Source of the DNA: a virus
IMG/VR virus record: IMGVR_UViG_3300050821_001858
Span: 49,067 to 113,066 of that record
Reading direction: 5' to 3' (one strand)
Length of the DNA: 64,000 bases
Both the position numbers and the translations under genes were made by a program. Positions 6,485-47,838 of this stretch are shown one piece after another. The notes below the pieces were generated by a model that worked only from the letters and a program-made list of their open reading frames with translations, did no database searches and was not told the origin of the DNA. How positions within the stretch are numbered: the stretch's first letter is position 1; every line of letters begins with the position of its first letter.

Positions 6485-6513
6485 TTGACAAAAGTTTGCC
6501 TCTATCGTATAGT
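6485..6513 (+). promoter_or_regulatory. Sigma70-type promoter
   Basis: TTGACA-17-TATAGT. Confidence 0.7.
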
Positions 6514-6594
6514 GACTATTACACCACCTTTGTAACGTGGATACTTCAGTTTGATTCTGAATAGGGGCTCCACTCTAAATTAGGAGAATATATC

Positions 6595-9863: not shown

Positions 9864-10892
9864 TTCGTCTTTGGACGGATTAGGGCAAGCCCCCCTGAAT
9901 GTGTGGGTATTAATATCAGAAAGTGTGTTATCACAAGGTAGTGTACACTACCTACCTACCGGGAGATAGGTACGCAAGCCTATCTCCCATTTAAAATTAT
10001 CAGATGTATTACAGATTGGGGGCATAGCCTCGTCAGGATAAGCCAGGGTGACTTGGTAAAAGCGGTAAGTCTTCCTACAGACCCGCACTATTAGCAATAA
10101 TAGCCCATCTATGCAGGTCCGGTCTTCCCCGTGAGGGGCAATCGATGGCATCGGTTGTAAAGCAGGACGGTTAGGTAAGGTCGAAAGATAGGTTCGAGGG
10201 TAACACTGTAGAGCCAAGTCCCGAAAGGACACCTTACGTTCAAACTAACTTACTGTGTATAGATAACGGATAGTGGGATACAGAGCATGAGACTTGCAAT
10301 CTAATGCGACCCGCAAAATGGAGGATAATGGCTGACGTTAACACAGTCGGACAGCATCCAAGAATTTGGTTTAGTAGCTCGCAAGGCGAAGGACAGTTGC
10401 CGTGTTGTATTTGGTACCTCAAAAGGGTATTGAGCAACAGTCGCAGCACGTCAAGTAGGTTTCCGATAATTGAAACTAGGTGTTTCAATCTCACTGTGAA
10501 TGAGATGTCGGTTGGTTCAAATCCAACTTATCATGCAGAAAAAGCAAAGTCTGCGACTGTGTTGAATGAAAGTGGTTTAATCCTATGAGTCCTTTGGACT
10601 AACATAGGGGATTTGTTACTCGCAAGGTGACAGTCTTTGATAGCGTGATTTGTCATAGAGGGTTAGCCCCCTCGAATAGCTCGCAAGGCTAGTGGTGAAA
10701 AGCATGTCGAATAGTTCAACATGAAAGAGGTACCGCCCCCTCTATAATCAAGGCAACCATGTGACGATACTGGATAGTTGTCCAGTGGAAATCGGGGAAC
10801 CTTTCTTAAATGTGCGCTCCGTCGCCGCATCCCTCGCAGGATGGAGGATAATCCCGTAAGTTGTCATGTAGAACCCGTATTCTCAGGGTTTT
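9864..10892 (+). ncRNA. Large structured ncRNA, GOLLD-like (5' boundary uncertain)
   Basis: About 1 kb with no credible ORF inside a tRNA array; many GNRA-capped hairpins (ctcgcaagg x3); gtgttgtatt..gtacctcaaaagggta..gcaac and terminal gtattctcaggg segments resemble GOLLD from memory. Confidence 0.65.
10463..10536 (+). tRNA. tRNA-His(GTG)-like domain embedded in the large ncRNA, no CCA
   Basis: gataa/ttatc, tctca-ctGTGaa-tgaga, gttgg-ttcaaat-ccaac. Confidence 0.65.
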
Positions 10893-11429: not shown

Positions 11430-11528
11430 GCCTCGGTAGCTTAGAAAATAGAGCGCATCCCGTTTAATATTCATATGGTGGATATTGGGAGGGGTGAGAC
11501 GTAGGTGAAATACCTACCAGAGGCACCA
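11430..11528 (+). tRNA. Non-canonical tRNA-like RNA with greatly extended anticodon arm
   Basis: gcctcgg/cagaggc, nearly the same T-arm gtaggtgaaatacctac, ACCA. Confidence 0.65.
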
Positions 11529-19337: not shown

Positions 19338-19506
19338 AATGGACACCGCAGTTCTTAATAAAGTTGATCAAGAATTTGAATATCGTAAGAAGCGTATCAT
19401 TGATGATTTGCGTCGTCGGGGTCGTTCCGAAGAAGATATTCAAGCCCATTTGAAATGGATGGAAGAAAACCGAGATTAATACGTATACTACCTCTGCGTA
19501 TTAAAG

Positions 19507-19865
19507 TTATAGACGGACTATCGCTGTACACCTATATGGGCTACCTTCGGGTACTGTACAGAGGAAAGTCGGGGCTGCACACGAAACCGTACAAGGTAAC
19601 ACCTTGGTATTCATAACTGCCACGCTTTTATGAATGACGATTAGAGCAACAGAAAATATGTATGCTTTATATACATGCCTAGATAGAGTGGGATAAACTT
19701 GTATATAAAGGCGTAGTGAAATTGGCAATCTCTACGGGCAGCAATCCCTAATAGGTCACTAGCCTTCGTGGGCGTTACGGTGACGGGTCGGGAGCTAGAG
19801 GGTAATCGCGAGGTTACTCCCAGATAAATGATAGTACTTGACAGAACCCCGCTTATAGTCTATAA
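19507..19865 (+). ncRNA. rnpB: RNase P RNA
   Basis: GAGGAAAGTC.GGGC, ACAGAAA, GTGAAA..GGCAA, AGATAAATG, ACAGAACCCCGCTTA; P1 ttatagac/gtctataa. Confidence 0.92.
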
Positions 19866-19948
19866 TGCTACTACCTTAGAATGACCATGATATTGAACGT
19901 AACAATTTGGGGCAGTTGGTCGAGCCCCCCTTGAATTAAAGGTGATAT

Positions 19949-20140
19949 ATGAAGATTAATCTATTTGCTGCTGCTTTTCTTGTTACCATGGCTTTATTGA
20001 TTTTTAAAGCATTAGGTTATATTACCATTGGATGGTTTTGGGTATTCTTGCCCCTTATCATTGGATTTGGATTTTGGATTTTGGTTTTGTTCTTTTGGAT
20101 TGGAATATTTATTTTGGCTGCTATCTTTAGTAAAGATTAA
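19949..20140 (+). CDS. Small membrane protein
   Basis: FK..G.I.IGWFWVFLPL pattern. Confidence 0.7.
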   Translation: MKINLFAAAFLVTMALLIFKALGYITIGWFWVFLPLIIGFGFWILVLFFWIGIFILAAIFSKD

Positions 20141-20141
20141 T

Positions 20142-20222
20142 GCACGCATAACCCCCTCGTCTTCGAAACGAGAGAAAGGTAACTGGATGTAAATGGGGGT
20201 TCGAATCCCTCTGCGTGCTCCA
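20142..20222 (+). tRNA. tRNA-Arg(TCG) without a conventional D-arm (D-loop relocated)
   Basis: gcacgca/tgcgtgc, ctcgt-ctTCGaa-acgag, T-arm, CCA. Confidence 0.75.
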
Positions 20223-20223
20223 T

Positions 20224-20301
20224 GGTTTCTTAGCTCAGTTGGAATAGAGCATCGCCCTGCGAAGGCGAAGGTCATCGGTTCGAGTCCGATAGAAACCTCC
20301 A
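20224..20301 (+). tRNA. tRNA-Arg(GCG)
   Basis: tcgcc-ctGCGaa-ggcga, A20. Confidence 0.92.
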
Positions 20302-20320
20302 TTTTATAAAGGGAGATGAT

Positions 20321-20848
20321 ATGACAGGTGAATATAATTATAAAGGTGATTACGGTGCTATTGCGGATCGACCAATCGATTCAGCTACTTGGACTGGTGA
20401 AGACACTAGTAAGTATCCGGTAGCGAATGCTGTTTATATCAATACCAATCCTGTTGGTACTAGTAATGTAATGCTTGAAACTACTCAAGATACAAAGTAT
20501 CAACAGTTTGAAGATGAAATACGGGCACTAATCAACAAACTATCACTTGAAGGTAATTCAAATACGCCTGATTTTATTCTCGCTGAGTTTCTGACAAACT
20601 GTCTTAAGGATTGGGATAGTGTTTCCTCTTATGAACAGTTTATGGATAGCGATGAAGTCCTTTGGGACTATCTGTGGCTTGCTCGCAGAACATTTCGAAA
20701 CACAAAGACTGTTCGTGCCAAGTGGTATATGCCGGTTATCGCTGAAAAGATAGCTTCGTCTTGGTGGAAAAAGTTGTATGTTTTCTGGGGAAGGCTTTGG
20801 GTTGCTTACCTAAATAATGGTAACTATAGTGATGCCTGGAAAAAGTAA
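20321..20848 (+). CDS. Hypothetical protein
   Basis: INKLSLEGNSNTPDFILAEFL segment; SD GGGAG. Confidence 0.7.
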   Translation: MTGEYNYKGDYGAIADRPIDSATWTGEDTSKYPVANAVYINTNPVGTSNVMLETTQDTKYQQFEDEIRALINKLSLEGNSNTPDFILAEFLTNCLKDWDSVSSYEQFMDSDEVLWDYLWLARRTFRNTKTVRAKWYMPVIAEKIASSWWKKLYVFWGRLWVAYLNNGNYSDAWKK

Positions 20849-20852
20849 TTAT

Positions 20853-20929
20853 TGGGGAGTAGGCTACGTTGGCTAAACCGCTTGGCTCTGAACCATGAGT
20901 AGAAGGTTCGACACCTTCCTCCCCATCCA
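20853..20929 (+). tRNA. tRNA-Gln(CTG)
   Basis: tggggag/ctcccca, ctCTGaa. Confidence 0.87.
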
Positions 20930-20973
20930 TTTTTCTCTTGACATTCGAGGGAGATAAGTATACAGTAGATAAT

Positions 20974-21047
20974 GTCCTGTTGGCAGACCGACGATGCAAC
21001 GGATTGCAACCCCGTTAAAGCTGGTTTAATTCCGGCACAGGACTCCA
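20974..21047 (+). tRNA. tRNA-Cys(GCA)
   Basis: ttGCAac loop, U73. Confidence 0.85.
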
Positions 21048-21054
21048 CTTTAAT

Positions 21055-21137
21055 GGTCTAGTAACCGGTTCGGGTTTCTACCCCGCTATCCGTAATTGGA
21101 GTTGTAAATGCGGGTTCGAGCCCTGCCTAGATCGCCA
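21055..21137 (+). tRNA. tRNA-Arg(TCT) without a conventional D-arm (D-loop relocated)
   Basis: ggtctag/ctagatc, cggg-ttTCTac-cccg, T-arm, GCCA. Confidence 0.75.
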
Positions 21138-21153
21138 TTTTAGGAGGTATATT

Positions 21154-21315
21154 ATGAAAGATGTTGATGCTGATCTTACCGAAGCATTATCGATTATCGC
21201 TGGTTTAATGTATTATGTTTCTGGTCATGATCTACGAGAAAGAGAAGCAAAGATTTTGAAAGAGTATTGCAATCGTGCTAATTCTCTTAGACAAAAGTAT
21301 CAAACGCTTTCTTAG
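21154..21315 (+). CDS. Hypothetical protein
   Basis: SD AGGAGG, 53 aa, stop lies inside tRNA-Arg. Confidence 0.6.
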   Translation: MKDVDADLTEALSIIAGLMYYVSGHDLREREAKILKEYCNRANSLRQKYQTLS

Positions 21316-21381
21316 TTCAACCGGAGAGAATAGTTGTTTCCTAAACTTCAGATTTGGGTTCGAGTCCCAAGGAAAGCACCA
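21306..21381 (+). tRNA. tRNA-Arg(CCT)
   Basis: ttCCTaa loop; weak anticodon stem. Confidence 0.8.
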
Positions 21382-21710
21382 TGACTAGATTAGAGAAGAT
21401 TGATGCGTTTTATGCGGTTGCTTTTATTGGTATTATGATCTATGTTTTTTGGTTTTATGTTCCTATGCAGTCTCATAGTTATTACATTCAAGGAACATTT
21501 GACGGTAAAGTTGGTTTAATAATGAATAGTCCTTTCATAGTTAAAGAACTTTGTGAGGATGTTGCTAAAGAGGCTCAAGCCGAAGTTGATTTGAATAAAC
21601 TGAGCATCTATATGATCCCTATAGAAGATCGTACTGATGTAATGAAAGAAGCTTTGAAAACTGATATCAAGATATCTTGTGTTTCAAAGAAACCGATTAT
21701 GGAAAGTTAA
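21381..21710 (+). CDS. Membrane-anchored hypothetical protein
   Basis: ATG shares the A of the upstream tRNA CCA; N-terminal TM. Confidence 0.6.
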   Translation: MTRLEKIDAFYAVAFIGIMIYVFWFYVPMQSHSYYIQGTFDGKVGLIMNSPFIVKELCEDVAKEAQAEVDLNKLSIYMIPIEDRTDVMKEALKTDIKISCVSKKPIMES

Positions 21711-42162: not shown

Positions 42163-42450
42163 ATGATACTTCCTGAATCTTTAGTAGGTTATATTGCATC
42201 GGTCTATATTTGTCTAGCATCAGCGACCGTTTGTGATAATTCAAATGCTCTTTGGACAAATTGGGCTTATATGCGCCCTGATAATGGTATGGTCGAACTT
42301 TCGTCCCCTGAGAAATTGAAGCAGATTTGTATCGATACAATGAAAAAAAATATTCCGAAGATCAATGCTCCTTATTTTACCATGGACGGGTCGAAAGAGG
42401 GCGAGCGATTAAAAATTCGGATTGAATGCGAAAAAGGTGTTGACATCTGA
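42163..42450 (+). CDS. Cys-containing, probably secreted protein
   Basis: Hydrophobic N-terminus, 4 Cys. Confidence 0.6.
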   Translation: MILPESLVGYIASVYICLASATVCDNSNALWTNWAYMRPDNGMVELSSPEKLKQICIDTMKKNIPKINAPYFTMDGSKEGERLKIRIECEKGVDI

Positions 42451-42470
42451 CCCAAGATGCAGTATAAATA
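42440..42470 (+). promoter_or_regulatory. Combined sigma70 and T4-late promoter for tmRNA
   Basis: TTGACA-17-TATAAATA. Confidence 0.7.
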
Positions 42471-42475
42471 AGACA

Positions 42476-42770
42476 CTGGACGATTAGTTGATGGTTCAAC
42501 TAAACACGAAACACTCGGGGGCAGTACCCGATACCTCCACCAAAAGCACATACCCTACCCAAAGGGTTGTTGACAGGGTTGGAAGGATCAACGCACAGGA
42601 TGTGCTTTTGATGGGGGTAAAATAGGTTCGACTTCGTGTGGAATGGAATCGGATAGTCGGTCGGTATATAACTGTCGCATCAAACGACAACTTTGCTCGG
42701 GAACTCGCCCTCGCGGCGTAATTCCCTACGGAGTTCGGTAGCTTCCTTGGCAACAGAAAAGCTACCATTT
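42476..42770 (+). ncRNA. ssrA: Two-piece (permuted) tmRNA, tag ASNDNFARELALAA
   Basis: T-arm and ACCTCCACCA (ending 42542) precede an intervening hairpin and the GGGGGT...TTCGAC piece (42613); tag ORF 42677-42721. Confidence 0.93.
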
Positions 42771-42804
42771 CACCATGTGTTTAACGAAAATAGGAGTGTA
42801 TACA

Positions 42805-43311
42805 ATGAGTTTGAATTCGAATGTTCGTAAGTTTGACCCTGTAAAGGGTATGGCGTTTCAGGGCGACCTCGCCATCGTTCCGGTTCCGGCTTCCGTGAAG
42901 CTTAACACCGCCAACGAAATCCAGCCCAAGAACGGCTACCTTGTTCTTCTTGAGGGTGAGTTGACTGGTCATCACCATGCAATTCCGGTCCTTGAGCGTC
43001 CGACCACTCAGGTTGAGCCGAAGACCACCCCGAAGAAGACCAGCAAGACTGTTGAAAACCTTTTCGACCTTGCTACTCAGGCTCCGTCCACCGCCAAGAT
43101 GTATCGTGATGCAAACGTCGCATCAGAGATGCAGCGCCTCGGCATCCTTACCCGTACCGACCTGATTGTCGGTGTGCTTGAGGTTTCCGAAGGTAACGGT
43201 GTTATCCTTCGCCATCACGAGCATGATGGTATCCACCTTCCGAAGGGCACTTACTACATCGGTCGTCAGGTCGAAAGTGCTTTCAATGAAGAGCGCCGGG
43301 TCGCCGACTAA
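42805..43311 (+). CDS. Hypothetical protein, usual partner of DUF6745-type proteins
   Basis: QGD, EGELTGHHH, H.EH..I.LP.G.Y...RQ.E......RVAD. Confidence 0.8.
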   Translation: MSLNSNVRKFDPVKGMAFQGDLAIVPVPASVKLNTANEIQPKNGYLVLLEGELTGHHHAIPVLERPTTQVEPKTTPKKTSKTVENLFDLATQAPSTAKMYRDANVASEMQRLGILTRTDLIVGVLEVSEGNGVILRHHEHDGIHLPKGTYYIGRQVESAFNEERRVAD

Positions 43312-46914: not shown

Positions 46915-47838
46915 ATGACTTTTGCTAATCTAAAGAAGAATGCTAAAACATCTATTGAGACGATCAATAAAAAAGTTCAAGAGATGAACAAGTTCCAGAG
47001 CGATGATCGCTTTTGGCAACTGACAACCGACAAGGCTGGTACAGGCGAAGCCACAATTCGCTTCCTTCCCACAAAAGACGCTGCGGCAAATGATGATGAC
47101 ATTCCATTCGTTCGTGTTTGGGACCATGGTTTTAAGGGTCCAGGCGGATGGTATATTGAAAAGTCGCTAACTACACTAGGTCCCGACACTCCTGATCCGG
47201 TGGCAGAATATAACAGCGCACTTTGGGCAACGGACGAAAAGGCTAAGAAAGATATCGTTTCTGGTACACCGAATAATCCCGGTACAAAGCGACGACTTCA
47301 TTACGTTTCCAACATTCTTGTTGTGAACGATCCTGAAAATCCTTCGAACAACGGTAAGGTTATGTTGTTCAAGTATGGAAAGAAGATTTTTGAGAAGTTG
47401 AATTCGGCAATGAACCCGAAGTTTGCTACTCAGAAGGCAATCAATCCATTTGATATGTGGAGCGGTGTTAATCTAATCCTTCGTGCTCATAAGGAAGATG
47501 GTCAGCGCGTTTATTCACAGTCAGAATTTGAAGCTGCATCACCGATTGCATCTACTGATAAGGAAATTGAAAAGATTTGGGGTAACACTTATTCCCTTAA
47601 GGAATTTGTTGACGCCAAGAATTTCAAGTCTTATGATGAACTTAAGGCACGTCTTGAACGTGTTTTGAAAAAGCCGGTAGCAGGTGCTACCTCTTCAGTT
47701 GAAGAACAGTCTCCGGTGAGACAGTCAACTGAGGGTCGCTCAAAGCCGGAACCGACCCAACAGGCAGAAACGCCACCTTGGGATGGTGAAGGTGACGAAG
47801 ATGATGAACTAGCTGAATTTCGTAAGCTAGCTCAGTAA
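46915..47838 (+). CDS. gp32: Single-stranded DNA-binding protein gp32
   Basis: DDRFW, IRFLP, HGFKGPGGWYIE, GKV.LFKYGKKIF, acidic tail. Confidence 0.95.
   Translation: MTFANLKKNAKTSIETINKKVQEMNKFQSDDRFWQLTTDKAGTGEATIRFLPTKDAAANDDDIPFVRVWDHGFKGPGGWYIEKSLTTLGPDTPDPVAEYNSALWATDEKAKKDIVSGTPNNPGTKRRLHYVSNILVVNDPENPSNNGKVMLFKYGKKIFEKLNSAMNPKFATQKAINPFDMWSGVNLILRAHKEDGQRVYSQSEFEAASPIASTDKEIEKIWGNTYSLKEFVDAKNFKSYDELKARLERVLKKPVAGATSSVEEQSPVRQSTEGRSKPEPTQQAETPPWDGEGDEDDELAEFRKLAQ

What the first reader, a model, noticed from the sequence alone, without database searches (positions are those of the whole stretch)
20142..21137. Two Arg tRNAs with the D-loop moved to the 3' side of the anticodon arm
Seen: 20142-20222 (UCG) and 21055-21137 (UCU) have normal acceptor stems, T-arms and CCA, but only 7-8 nt between acceptor and anticodon stem, so there is no D hairpin. 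After the anticodon arm both carry a D-loop-like TAAYTGGA followed by ...TGTAAAT. The short 5' strand can pair on both sides of that loop with covariation (ac-cc with gg-[taactggat]-gt; ac-cgg with ccg-[taattgga]-gt). Established: G18G19 contact the T-loop and A20 is the major Arg identity element, and GGA is preserved in the relocated loop. Inference: a rewired topology giving the same L-shape, likely to be missed by tRNA finders and possibly evading tRNA-targeting defences.
Basis: partly seen in the sequence, partly recalled or inferred. Interest (0 to 1): 0.82.

Follow-up and report, generated by a model that had tools for sequence, protein, structure and literature searches.

The report
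Two phage arginine tRNAs, rewired D-arm
Two genes in this soil phage's tRNA cluster are very probably working arginine tRNAs that are not cloverleaves: one strand of the D-stem and the whole D-loop lie after the anticodon arm and pair back around it, a layout shared by many phages, missed by gene finders and not found in any paper I could search.

Summary
Window 20142-20222 (anticodon UCG) and 21055-21137 (UCU) have normal acceptor stems, anticodon arms, T-arms and CCA. They have no D hairpin, and a (G)UAAYUGGA motif follows the anticodon arm.

- **Family:** a pattern scan of viral contigs gave about 70 distinct homologues, nearly all with Arg anticodons. My covariance model scores the two genes 79.9 and 65.3 bits; ordinary tRNAs score 32 or less.
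- **Helix:** on an unfitted alignment, the short 5' strand pairs with the bases just before the motif. One pair is kept in 64 of 65 sequences using four pair types. In the subtype of the UCU gene, two further covarying pairs lie beyond the motif.
- **Arg signature:** the motif is the D-loop signature of ordinary tRNA-Arg (25 of 39 Arg against 36 of 629 other tRNAs).
- **Non-redundancy:** rewired and ordinary Arg tRNAs of one phage rarely share an anticodon.
- **Stand-alone case:** in Pseudomonas phage PA11 the rewired gene is the only tRNA.

Not shown: expression, charging, the 3D fold, and any role in evading defences.

This scan has already reported the same family on many other genomes. A later check of one such report kept the observation and gave its bold reading 30 in 100. 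I found no published description.

The parts
20142..20222 (+). Rewired tRNA-Arg(UCG), 7-nt-linker subtype, CCA encoded
   Evidence: Sequence read. Model R1 scores it 79.9 bits. Rfam tRNA 34.7 bits with the D arm deleted. Not called by ARAGORN.
20152..20153 (+). Gene 1, 5' strand of the enclosing helix (CC); takes the place of D-stem positions 23-24
   Evidence: Pairs with G20179 and G20178. The family equivalents are C:G in 65 of 65 and a pair kept in 64 of 65 with four pair types.
20163..20165 (+). Gene 1 anticodon UCG in the loop CUUCGAA
   Evidence: No ordinary tRNA-Arg(UCG) was called in the window.
20178..20187 (+). Gene 1, 3' strand of the helix (GG) followed by the D-loop-like UAACUGGA
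   Evidence: Motif conserved in the family. ARY(Y)GGA is the D-loop signature of ordinary tRNA-Arg.
21055..21137 (+). Rewired tRNA-Arg(UCU), 8-nt-linker subtype, CCA encoded
   Evidence: Sequence read. Model R1 scores it 65.3 bits. Rfam tRNA 25.3 bits, below the gathering score. Not called by ARAGORN.
21064..21068 (+). Gene 2, 5' strand of the enclosing helix (ACCGG)
   Evidence: A21064:U21102, C21065:G21101, C21066:G21092, G21067:C21091, G21068:C21090. All five columns are supported in the family.
21077..21079 (+). Gene 2 anticodon UCU in the loop UUUCUAC
   Evidence: No ordinary tRNA-Arg(UCU) was called in the window.
21090..21102 (+). Gene 2, 3' strand of the helix: CCG, the 8-nt bulge UAAUUGGA, then GU
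20224..20301 (+). Ordinary cloverleaf tRNA-Arg(GCG), starting one base after gene 1's CCA; used as comparator
   Evidence: ARAGORN; Rfam 68.7 bits.
21306..21381 (+). Ordinary cloverleaf tRNA-Arg(CCU); used as comparator
   Evidence: ARAGORN; Rfam 48.5 bits.

Best explanation
Both genes encode working elongator tRNAs for arginine. Gene 1 (UCG) would read CGA and CGG, and gene 2 (UCU) would read AGA. They belong to a widespread phage family with a changed strand order.

An ordinary tRNA runs 8-9, D-stem 5' strand, D-loop, D-stem 3' strand, 26, anticodon arm, variable loop. Here the order is 8-9, a short strand in the place of 22-26, the anticodon arm, a few mostly A-rich bases, a strand in the place of 10-12, a D-loop-like UAAYUGGA (A14 A15 Y16 U17 G18 G19 A20 by analogy), a short tail ending in AU, then the T arm.

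The two short strands pair around the anticodon hairpin and extend it by a 2-3 bp helix. In the 8-nt-linker subtype (gene 2), two or three more pairs lie beyond the loop, so the loop becomes a bulge in a 5-6 bp helix.

Inferred, not shown:
- The GG reaches the T loop as G18-G19 do, so the elbow forms.
- The following A plays the part of A20 for the host's arginyl-tRNA synthetase, together with C35.
- Host RNase P, EF-Tu and the ribosome accept the molecule, because the acceptor/T branch, the anticodon arm and a helix in the D-stem's place are all kept.

The likely biological role is the usual one for phage tRNAs: supplying Arg codons that the phage uses more than its host does.
For: 1. Real family. 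The pattern GTAAYTGGA-N(3-14)-GGTTCGA hit 119 or more viral loci, and about 70 distinct hits parse as this layout. Anticodons were UCU 41, ACG 25, UCG 3, CCU 2 and one GAU.

2. Selection on structure. On the unfitted MAFFT alignment A1, 97.0% of cells pair against 61.1% for shuffles (0 of 500 shuffles reach it) and 38-46% with partners slid. All three classical stems covary.

3. The new helix.
- The first pair is C:G in 65 of 65 (the search pattern fixed the G).
- The next pair is kept in 64 of 65 with GC 28, CG 23, UA 8, AU 5.
- The third pair is kept in 39 of 65 with five pair types.
- In the gene-2 subtype, the pairs beyond the bulge are kept in 16 of 16 (GC 10, AU 6) and 25 of 30.
- Members found by the model without the pattern show that the 'invariant' pair also covaries: G:C in L052:9491-9566 and U:A in L053:6388-6463.

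4. Model R1 separates the class. It gives 57-87 bits for members (one search also lists weaker matches of 49-57 bits) and 32 or less for ordinary tRNAs. The window genes score 79.9 and 65.3 bits.

5. Arg-type D loop. ARY(Y)GGA occurs in the D loop of 25 of 39 ordinary tRNA-Arg but 36 of 629 other tRNAs in the same phage loci. A20, C35 and U/G36 are the bacterial Arg identity elements (PMC9976931). Two of the three rewired members with Ile anticodons have GGU instead of GGA.

6. Non-redundancy.
- In 20 loci that hold both kinds of Arg tRNA, the anticodon sets overlap in 2, against 6.3 expected by shuffling (P about 0.007).
- In this window GCG and CCU are ordinary, and UCG and UCU are rewired.
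- CGA, CGG and AGA together make up 51% of Arg codons in the window's long ORFs.

7. No phage helper is needed.
- In Pseudomonas phage PA11 (49.6 kb) the rewired tRNA-Arg(UCU) is the only tRNA and the only Rfam match.
- AGA and AGG make up 44% of PA11's Arg codons.
- No ArgRS domain is present in this 113-kb record.

8. Wide host range: phages of Microbacterium, Pseudomonas, Sinorhizobium, Mesorhizobium, Maribacter, Limnohabitans, Stenotrophomonas and Klebsiella, plus a crAss-like phage.
Against: - No experiment or read-level data show a mature, charged RNA.
- The enclosing helix is short. In gene 1 it has only two secure pairs, because the third position is C/A. RNAalifold does not predict it from energy.
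- Single-sequence folds are no better than shuffles (z -1.4 and -1.6).
- The third helix pair is unpaired in 26 of 65 members.
- The mapping of loop bases onto positions 14-20 is by analogy only.
- My pattern fixed GTAAYTGGA and GGTTCGA, so conservation of those letters in the pattern-derived set is circular. Only the dozen model-found members test it.
- Related phages share sequences, so the counts are not independent events.
- Microbacterium phage Zooman and L038 each carry an ordinary and a rewired Arg tRNA with the same anticodon.
- A later check of the same claim on other DNA gave the bold reading 30 in 100.
Confidence: 0.72

Rival explanations
1. The same working tRNA-Arg, but the rewiring is kept because it makes the phage's Arg tRNAs poor substrates for host enzymes that attack or deplete tRNA-Arg by recognising the D arm or core.
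For: - The family is almost confined to viral DNA. About 70 of 119 pattern hits in viral contigs are members, against 1 of 120 in prokaryote genomes, and that one lies inside a tRNA array.
- Zooman and L038 carry a rewired copy beside an ordinary copy with the same anticodon, which codon supply alone does not explain.
- Phage tRNAs that resist host tRNases have been proposed (PMC10264068), and colicin D is named there among the tRNA-depleting enzymes.
Against: - Nothing here tests it.
- The anticodon loops are the standard Arg loops, whereas the published escape hypothesis rests on anticodon-loop changes.
- In most phages the rewired and ordinary Arg tRNAs split the anticodons between them. 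That pattern fits plain decoding and leaves the ordinary ones exposed.
- No defence or counter-defence gene is consistently adjacent. HNH endonucleases flank the gene in PA11 and SOVA965 only.
Confidence: 0.12
2. A conserved tRNA-like RNA that is not used in translation. It could be a decoy or sponge for a tRNA-binding protein, or a processing or regulatory element of the tRNA operon. The UAAYUGGA segment would then serve some role other than that of a D loop.
For: - Charging and ribosomal use are unproven.
- The core differs from every tRNA known to work in bacterial translation.
- Other tRNA-like modules without anticodons occur in this same phage, according to unchecked first-reader notes.
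Against: - The anticodon loops are intact 7-nt loops with U33 and A37, and the anticodons are restricted to Arg: 71 of 72 of those parsed as this layout.
- Anticodons complement the ordinary Arg tRNAs of the same phage.
- CCA or a host-appropriate 3' end and a discriminator base are kept.
- In PA11 it is the only tRNA, and that phage uses AGA and AGG for 44% of its Arg codons.
Confidence: 0.1
3. Decayed tRNA genes: pseudogenes that lost the D arm and picked up an insertion in the variable region.
For: Low Rfam scores (34.7 and 25.3 bits) and no ARAGORN call.
Against: - About 70 homologues in unrelated phages share the same layout.
- Compensatory changes occur in all stems and in the new helix.
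- Two subtypes are kept side by side in this one phage.
- They fill the only UCG and UCU slots.
Confidence: 0.03
4. The RNA is rearranged after transcription (cut and rejoined, as for permuted tRNA genes) to restore an ordinary cloverleaf.
For: Permuted and split tRNA genes are known in algae and archaea (established knowledge). A T4-like phage may carry RNA ligases; I did not check this.
Against: - The two acceptor strands already sit at the ends of the gene. Restoring the usual order would need two cuts and two joins inside the molecule.
- No bulge-helix-bulge motif is evident.
- The RNA-library contigs that cover both genes are colinear with the DNA, with no joint. Contigs can miss rare forms, so this point is weak.
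Confidence: 0.02

Closest known systems
Ordinary class I bacterial and phage tRNA-Arg (Rfam RF00005), for example this phage's own tRNA-Arg(GCG) at 20224-20301 and tRNA-Arg(CCU) at 21306-21381
   Same: 7-bp acceptor stem, discriminator and CCA. 5-bp T stem with a UUCGA-type loop. 7-nt anticodon loop identical to ordinary Arg loops. U8 and A9. An A-R-Y-Y-G-G-A loop with the A20-like base. A pyrimidine before the T stem that could pair with the A15-like base.
   Different: No D hairpin between position 9 and the anticodon arm. The strand that pairs with the 22-25-like bases, and the whole D loop, lie after the anticodon arm. The cloverleaf's four-way junction becomes a three-way junction with a long anticodon/D-like helix. 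Gene 2 fails Rfam's gathering score.
Mitochondrial tRNAs without a D arm, for example animal mt tRNA-Ser(AGY) and nematode and mite minimal tRNAs (PMC4394434 and PMC2797822 appeared in my searches; I did not read them in detail)
   Same: No D hairpin at the usual place, and only a short connector between the acceptor and anticodon stems.
   Different: Those are shortened molecules with a D-replacement loop and usually degenerate T loops. They work with a specialised mitochondrial apparatus. The phage genes are 78-80 nt before CCA, keep a standard T loop and a GG-containing D-loop motif, and must work with ordinary bacterial enzymes.
Permuted and split tRNA genes of red algae and archaea (established knowledge)
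   Same: The order of tRNA segments in the gene differs from the cloverleaf order.
   Different: In those genes the 3' half precedes the 5' half, and RNA processing restores a normal cloverleaf. Here the termini are normal, only the D-stem 5' strand plus D loop is displaced, and the mature RNA would itself have the new order.
Class II tRNAs with a long variable arm, and allo-tRNAs with 8/4 or 9/3 acceptor/T branches (PMC5389517)
   Same: About 20 nt lie between the anticodon and T arms. Both are natural departures from the 7/5 class I cloverleaf, and some occur in phage tRNA clusters.
   Different: Their extra region forms its own hairpin and they keep a D arm. Here the extra region has no hairpin of its own, and it pairs back across the anticodon arm.

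Membership tests
Canonical cloverleaf tRNA (Rfam RF00005) | 7-bp acceptor stem with discriminator, and CCA or a site for CCA addition | tested here: met
   Both genes have 7 pairs (one G-U in gene 2), discriminator U or G, and CCA encoded.
Canonical cloverleaf tRNA (Rfam RF00005) | T arm: 5-bp stem and a 7-nt UUCRANY-type loop | tested here: met
   GGGGG-UUCGAAU-CCCUC and GCGGG-UUCGAGC-CCUGC. The stem covaries in the family.
Canonical cloverleaf tRNA (Rfam RF00005) | Anticodon arm: 5-bp stem, 7-nt loop with U33 and a purine at 37 | tested here: met
   Loops are CUUCGAA and UUUCUAC. Gene 2 has a U/C mismatch at the outermost stem pair.
Canonical cloverleaf tRNA (Rfam RF00005) | D hairpin between position 9 and the anticodon arm | tested here: not met
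   Only 7 or 8 nt lie between the acceptor and anticodon stems. Rfam aligns both genes with the D arm deleted.
Canonical cloverleaf tRNA (Rfam RF00005) | Score at or above Rfam's gathering score of 29 bits | tested here: inconclusive
   Gene 1 scores 34.7 bits (met). Gene 2 scores 25.3 bits (not met).
Rewired phage tRNA-Arg family (defined here by model R1) | 7-8 nt linker UA(N)NC..., followed directly by the anticodon arm | tested here: met
   UAACCCC and UAACCGGU. Family linkers are listed.
Rewired phage tRNA-Arg family (defined here by model R1) | Covarying helix between the linker and the bases just 5' of the loop motif, enclosing the anticodon arm | tested here: met
   Gene 2 has 3 pairs plus 2 beyond the bulge. 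Gene 1 has 2 pairs plus one possible A:U.
Rewired phage tRNA-Arg family (defined here by model R1) | (G)UAAYUGGA after the anticodon arm, 4-10 nt before the T stem | tested here: met
   20179-20187 and 21092-21100.
Rewired phage tRNA-Arg family (defined here by model R1) | High score with model R1, well separated from ordinary tRNAs | tested here: met
   79.9 and 65.3 bits, against 32 or less for ordinary tRNAs. Both genes were in the model's training alignment, so they match it partly by construction. Cultured-phage copies outside the training set score 57-78 bits.
Functional tRNA-Arg (bacterial identity set) | C35 with U or G at 36 | tested here: met
   Anticodons are UCG and UCU. The identity set is taken from PMC9976931.
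Functional tRNA-Arg (bacterial identity set) | A20 in the D loop presented to ArgRS | not testable with these tools
   An A follows GG in the relocated loop, and this is the Arg-type motif. Whether it occupies the A20 site needs a structure or charging assays.
Functional tRNA-Arg (bacterial identity set) | Processed to a mature RNA and arginylated | not testable with these tools
   Only assembled contigs of RNA libraries were available. They cannot show ends, level or charging.
Mitochondrial-type tRNA without a D arm | Shortened molecule with a D-replacement loop and no D-loop/T-loop contact motif | tested here: not met
   78-80 nt before CCA, a standard T loop, and a conserved GG motif.
Permuted tRNA gene | The 3' half lies upstream of the 5' half, so the acceptor strands are internal to the gene | tested here: not met
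   The acceptor strands are at the two ends of each gene.
Class II tRNA | The long variable region forms its own stem-loop, and a D arm is present | tested here: not met
   No self-hairpin was predicted for the region on the family alignment, and there is no D arm.

The most novel reading that the evidence does not exclude
A natural class of tRNAs that is not a cloverleaf works in ordinary bacterial translation. The D-stem 5' strand and D loop are transposed to the 3' side of the anticodon arm, yet the molecule is charged by host ArgRS through a relocated A20 and is accepted by RNase P, EF-Tu and the ribosome. Phages maintain the design because it makes their Arg tRNAs resistant to a host activity directed at ordinary tRNA-Arg.
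Probability: 0.1. Interest if true: 0.92.

Novelty: new variant of a known kind. Interest (0 to 1): 0.78.

Why it matters
- **The cloverleaf would not be the only solution.** The cloverleaf strand order is treated as universal for tRNAs used by bacterial ribosomes. A widespread natural family that builds the D-stem region with the strands in a different order would show that the L-shape, ArgRS recognition through A20, and passage through the ribosome tolerate a different topology. That bears on tRNA evolution and on the design of orthogonal tRNAs.
- **Annotation gap.** Standard annotation misses these genes. Phage tRNA inventories, codon-supply analyses and host predictions are therefore wrong for Arg in many phages, including cultured ones such as PA11, whose only tRNA is unannotated.
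- **A testable lead.** The family also offers a concrete test of the idea that phage tRNAs are shaped by host tRNA-directed defences.

Tried and rejected
1. **Single-sequence folding.** The minimum-energy structures are not tRNA-like and are no better than shuffles. This is uninformative, as it often is for tRNAs.

2. **RNAalifold on the 65-sequence alignment.** It recovers the acceptor, anticodon and T stems but not the short enclosing helix, so that helix rests on covariation counts only.

3. **In-silico 'de-permutation'.** I moved the 11-nt segment back between positions 9 and 22 and ran ARAGORN. 64 of 68 were then called with the right anticodon, against 0 of 68 for the originals. A shuffled segment gave 51 of 68 and shifted segments 22-68 of 68. 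ARAGORN is mostly responding to spacing, so I do not count this as evidence.

4. **RNA libraries.**
- One soil metatranscriptome holds contigs over 20075-20296 and 20886-21498 that are colinear with the DNA.
- Their depth (3-5) equals that of the neighbouring ORFs, and DNA carry-over cannot be excluded.
- Contigs show no ends.
- This is therefore no evidence for or against a mature tRNA.
- The uncovered stretches mean nothing.

5. **Literature.** Six full-text searches on phage tRNA, D arm, non-cloverleaf, D-armless, atypical tRNA and ArgRS found no description. The library lacks most subscription journals, so this is not proof of novelty.

7. **A required phage helper.** There is no ArgRS domain in the 113-kb record, which is 63% complete. 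PA11 has no RNase P RNA or other tRNA. I therefore dropped the idea that the nearby phage RNase P RNA is needed for these tRNAs.

8. **Position 10 pairing in the 7-nt-linker subtype.** Pairing with the first base after the loop is 44% against 35% by shuffling. It is not established.
Full report
**What is there**

The window is the last 64 kb of a 113-kb IMG/VR virus record, 63% complete by CheckV. The DNA is held by soil metagenomes, and earlier notes call the phage T4-like.

Between about 5.3 and 22.7 kb lies a large tRNA cluster. ARAGORN tRNAs there. Rfam also finds a GOLLD RNA, a class A RNase P RNA at 19505-19871, and a permuted tmRNA.

The two flagged stretches sit inside this cluster. 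Gene 1 (20142-20222) begins two bases after a small ORF and ends one base before an ordinary tRNA-Arg(GCG). Gene 2 (21055-21137) begins seven bases after tRNA-Cys.

Read base by base, both have a 7-bp acceptor stem, a discriminator, CCA, a standard T arm and a standard anticodon arm (UCG and UCU). Only 7 or 8 nt separate the acceptor and anticodon stems. After the anticodon arm comes a 20-23 nt region containing GUAACUGGA or GUAAUUGGA.

ARAGORN calls neither gene. Rfam's tRNA model aligns both with the D arm deleted and a long insertion, at 34.7 and 25.3 bits against a gathering score of 29.

**It is a family, not an accident**

A first blastn search against cultured phages aligned gene 1 to an unannotated stretch of Microbacterium phage Zooman. 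That stretch has the same layout and anticodon ACG.

No ordinary tRNA can match this pattern, because its D and T loops are about 35 nt apart.

An anchor-based parser found that about 70 distinct hits have the full layout. Their anticodons are UCU 41, ACG 25, UCG 3, CCU 2 and one GAU. The rest are chance matches inside coding regions.

Two subtypes are visible:
- **7-nt linker** (UAUCNNN or UAACNNN), as in gene 1.
- **8-nt linker** (UA-R-Y-C-NNN) with a 9-nt tail such as GYUGNAAAU, as in gene 2.

**Covariation**

I counted pairs in two ways that do not fit the alignment to the structure.

From fixed anchors (the end of the acceptor stem and the G of the motif):
- The invariant linker C faces the motif's G in 68 of 68.
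- The next linker base pairs with the base before the G in 67 of 68, as GC 29, CG 23, UA 8 and AU 7.
- The third pairs in 62%, against 29% by shuffling.
- The fourth does not pair (12%), as expected for a base in the place of position 26.

On a MAFFT alignment of 65 members (A1), the count of structure pairs gave the following:
- 97.0% paired cells against 61.1% in shuffles; 0 of 500 shuffles reach it.
- 38-46% paired when partners are slid by one to three columns.
- The acceptor, anticodon and T stems all covary richly.
- The new helix gives 65/65, 64/65 (four pair types) and 39/65 (five pair types).

In the 8-nt-linker subtype, the two bases before the invariant C pair with the two bases after the loop. 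This holds in 16 of 16 (GC 10, AU 6) and 25 of 30 (CG 9, UA 9, AU 5, UG 2).

In the 7-nt-linker subtype this extra pairing is weak: 44% against 35% by shuffling.

RNAalifold does not predict the short helix from energy, so the case for it is comparative only.

**A model of the class**

A covariance model built from A1 (R1) scores members of the class at 57-87 bits (one search also lists weaker matches of 49-57 bits) and ordinary tRNAs at 32 or less. The record holds exactly two copies.

R1 also found about a dozen members that do not match my pattern. These are the only ones that test the motif without circularity:
- They keep UAA(Y)UGGA with small length changes.
- They show that the 'invariant' pair can flip: G:C in L052:9491-9566 and U:A in L053:6388-6463.

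Some phages carry three or four rewired Arg tRNAs. L084 has UCG, GCG, UCU and CCU.

**Which part of a tRNA has moved**

The loop reads U-A-A-Y-U-G-G-A. Among ordinary tRNAs called by ARAGORN in the same phage loci, the D-loop motif A-R-Y-(Y)-G-G-A occurs in 25 of 39 tRNA-Arg and 36 of 629 others. It is therefore the Arg-type D loop, ending in the base that corresponds to A20.

The mapping that fits all the counts is as follows:
- The linker is U8, A9, a 22-like base, an invariant C in the place of 23, the two covarying bases in the place of 24 and 25, and an unpaired 26-like base.
- After the anticodon arm come the bases in the place of 10, 11 and 12, then 13 to 20, then a tail ending in A-U before the T stem.
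- That final U is invariant and could make the A15:U48-type pair.

In an ordinary tRNA, position 9 lies beside 23, positions 44-45 lie beside 10 and 26, and position 21 lies beside 46-48 (established knowledge of the tRNA core). All three new connections are therefore sterically plausible. This paragraph is inference and no 3D model was computed.

I cannot decide between them.

**Evidence that they are used as Arg tRNAs**

- **Identity elements.** Bacterial Arg identity rests on A20, C35, U/G36 and A/G73 (PMC9976931). C35 and the A after GG are kept.
- **Ile-anticodon members.** Of the three rewired members with Ile-type anticodons, two have GGU (L027:2428-2504 and crAss-like cr130_1) and one has GGA (L041). 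This is a small hint that the base after GG tracks identity.
- **Anticodon complement.** In 20 loci holding both ordinary and rewired Arg tRNAs, the two sets share an anticodon in 2, against 6.3 expected by shuffling (P about 0.007). In this window GCG and CCU are ordinary, and UCG and UCU are rewired.
- **Codon use.** CGA, CGG and AGA together are 51% of Arg codons in the window's long ORFs.
- **PA11.** In Pseudomonas phage PA11 the rewired tRNA-Arg(UCU) is the only tRNA and the only Rfam match in 49.6 kb. AGA plus AGG are 44% of its Arg codons. These codons are rare in its GC-rich host (my own knowledge).
- **No phage ArgRS.** None is present in this record.

The design therefore appears to work with host enzymes, in phages of at least Actinomycetota, Alpha-, Beta- and Gammaproteobacteria and Bacteroidota. 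None of the cultured-phage copies I looked at is annotated as a tRNA: most lie in unannotated DNA, and two overlap CDSs labelled hypothetical protein.

**What is not shown**

Expression, 5' and 3' processing, charging and decoding are untested. RNA-library contigs cover both genes colinearly, but at the same low depth as the flanking ORFs, so they say nothing about a mature tRNA.

The defence-evasion idea is untested. The anticodon loops are the ordinary Arg loops, while the published escape hypothesis concerns loop changes (PMC10264068). Two cases of an ordinary and a rewired copy with the same anticodon (Zooman, L038) leave room for it.

**Prior reports and novelty**

This scan has already reported the same family on many other genomes. 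35 notes matched my first word query and 89 matched a broader one, though that broader set also returned unrelated tRNA findings. One follow-up was later checked with 'what was seen stands', scored as seen 93 in 100 and bold reading 30 in 100.

Six literature searches found no description, but the library is incomplete.

**Verdict**

- The two genes are members of a real, selected, phage-borne family of non-cloverleaf tRNA-Arg genes.
- Function in translation is probable but unproven.
- A defence-related advantage is speculative.

Noticed in passing
window 19505-19871: The phage encodes a full-length class A RNase P RNA (Rfam 167.8 bits), about 270 nt upstream of gene 1. RNA-library contigs of four soil metatranscriptome studies hold it. 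In run X2 its depth is 151, against 3-5 for neighbouring DNA. One 354-nt contig joins 19875 back to 19552, which is a circular 324-nt unitig; this could be a circularised RNA or an assembly or ligation artefact.
   Followed up: partly
L001:1645-1865 (Microbacterium phage Zooman, OK040793.1): A 221-nt stretch between two tRNA-Arg genes matches the bacterial RNase P RNA model end to end, but at only 53 bits (gathering score 100). It may be a reduced phage RNase P RNA, and it is unannotated.
   Followed up: no
L027:2428-2504; L041:193-271; L244:397-474 (crAss-like phage cr130_1): These are rewired tRNAs with Ile-type anticodons (GAU, GAU, UAU). Two of them have GGU instead of GGA in the relocated loop. 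The design is therefore not strictly limited to Arg.
   Followed up: partly
L084 (954-1027, 1034-1113, 2687-2767, 2772-2851); L015 (three copies); L099: Some phages carry three or four rewired Arg tRNAs. In L084 they cover CCU, UCU, UCG and GCG, which is a near-complete Arg set in the non-cloverleaf form.
   Followed up: partly
L248 (Pseudomonas phage PA11, NC_007808.1) 47672-47751; L250 (Stenotrophomonas phage SOVA965) 284-358: In these two small phages the rewired tRNA-Arg lies directly downstream of an HNH homing endonuclease gene. This might bear on how the gene spreads.
   Followed up: no
window 11430-11525 and 6498-6569: Rfam finds two further tRNA matches that ARAGORN does not call. One is 96 nt at 32.2 bits, with a long insertion around the anticodon region and a T loop UGAAAUA. 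The other is 72 nt at 45.6 bits.
   Followed up: no
window 10395-10889 and 42436-42812: A GOLLD RNA (174.5 bits) lies inside the tRNA cluster, overlapping tRNA-His. There is also a permuted, alphaproteobacterial-type tmRNA with tag VASNDNFARELALAA.
   Followed up: no
L112:2260-2346: This family member has an 11-nt tandem duplication inside the anticodon arm (CUUCGAAACU UUCGAAACUAG). It may be a damaged copy or a variant with an extended arm.
   Followed up: no
L140:4746-4822 (Blastocatellia MAG contig JAWVEB010000045.1, 139 kb): This is the only true family member among 120 pattern hits in prokaryote genomes. It sits in a dense run of tRNA-like matches, so it is probably a prophage or a mis-binned phage contig.
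   Followed up: partly
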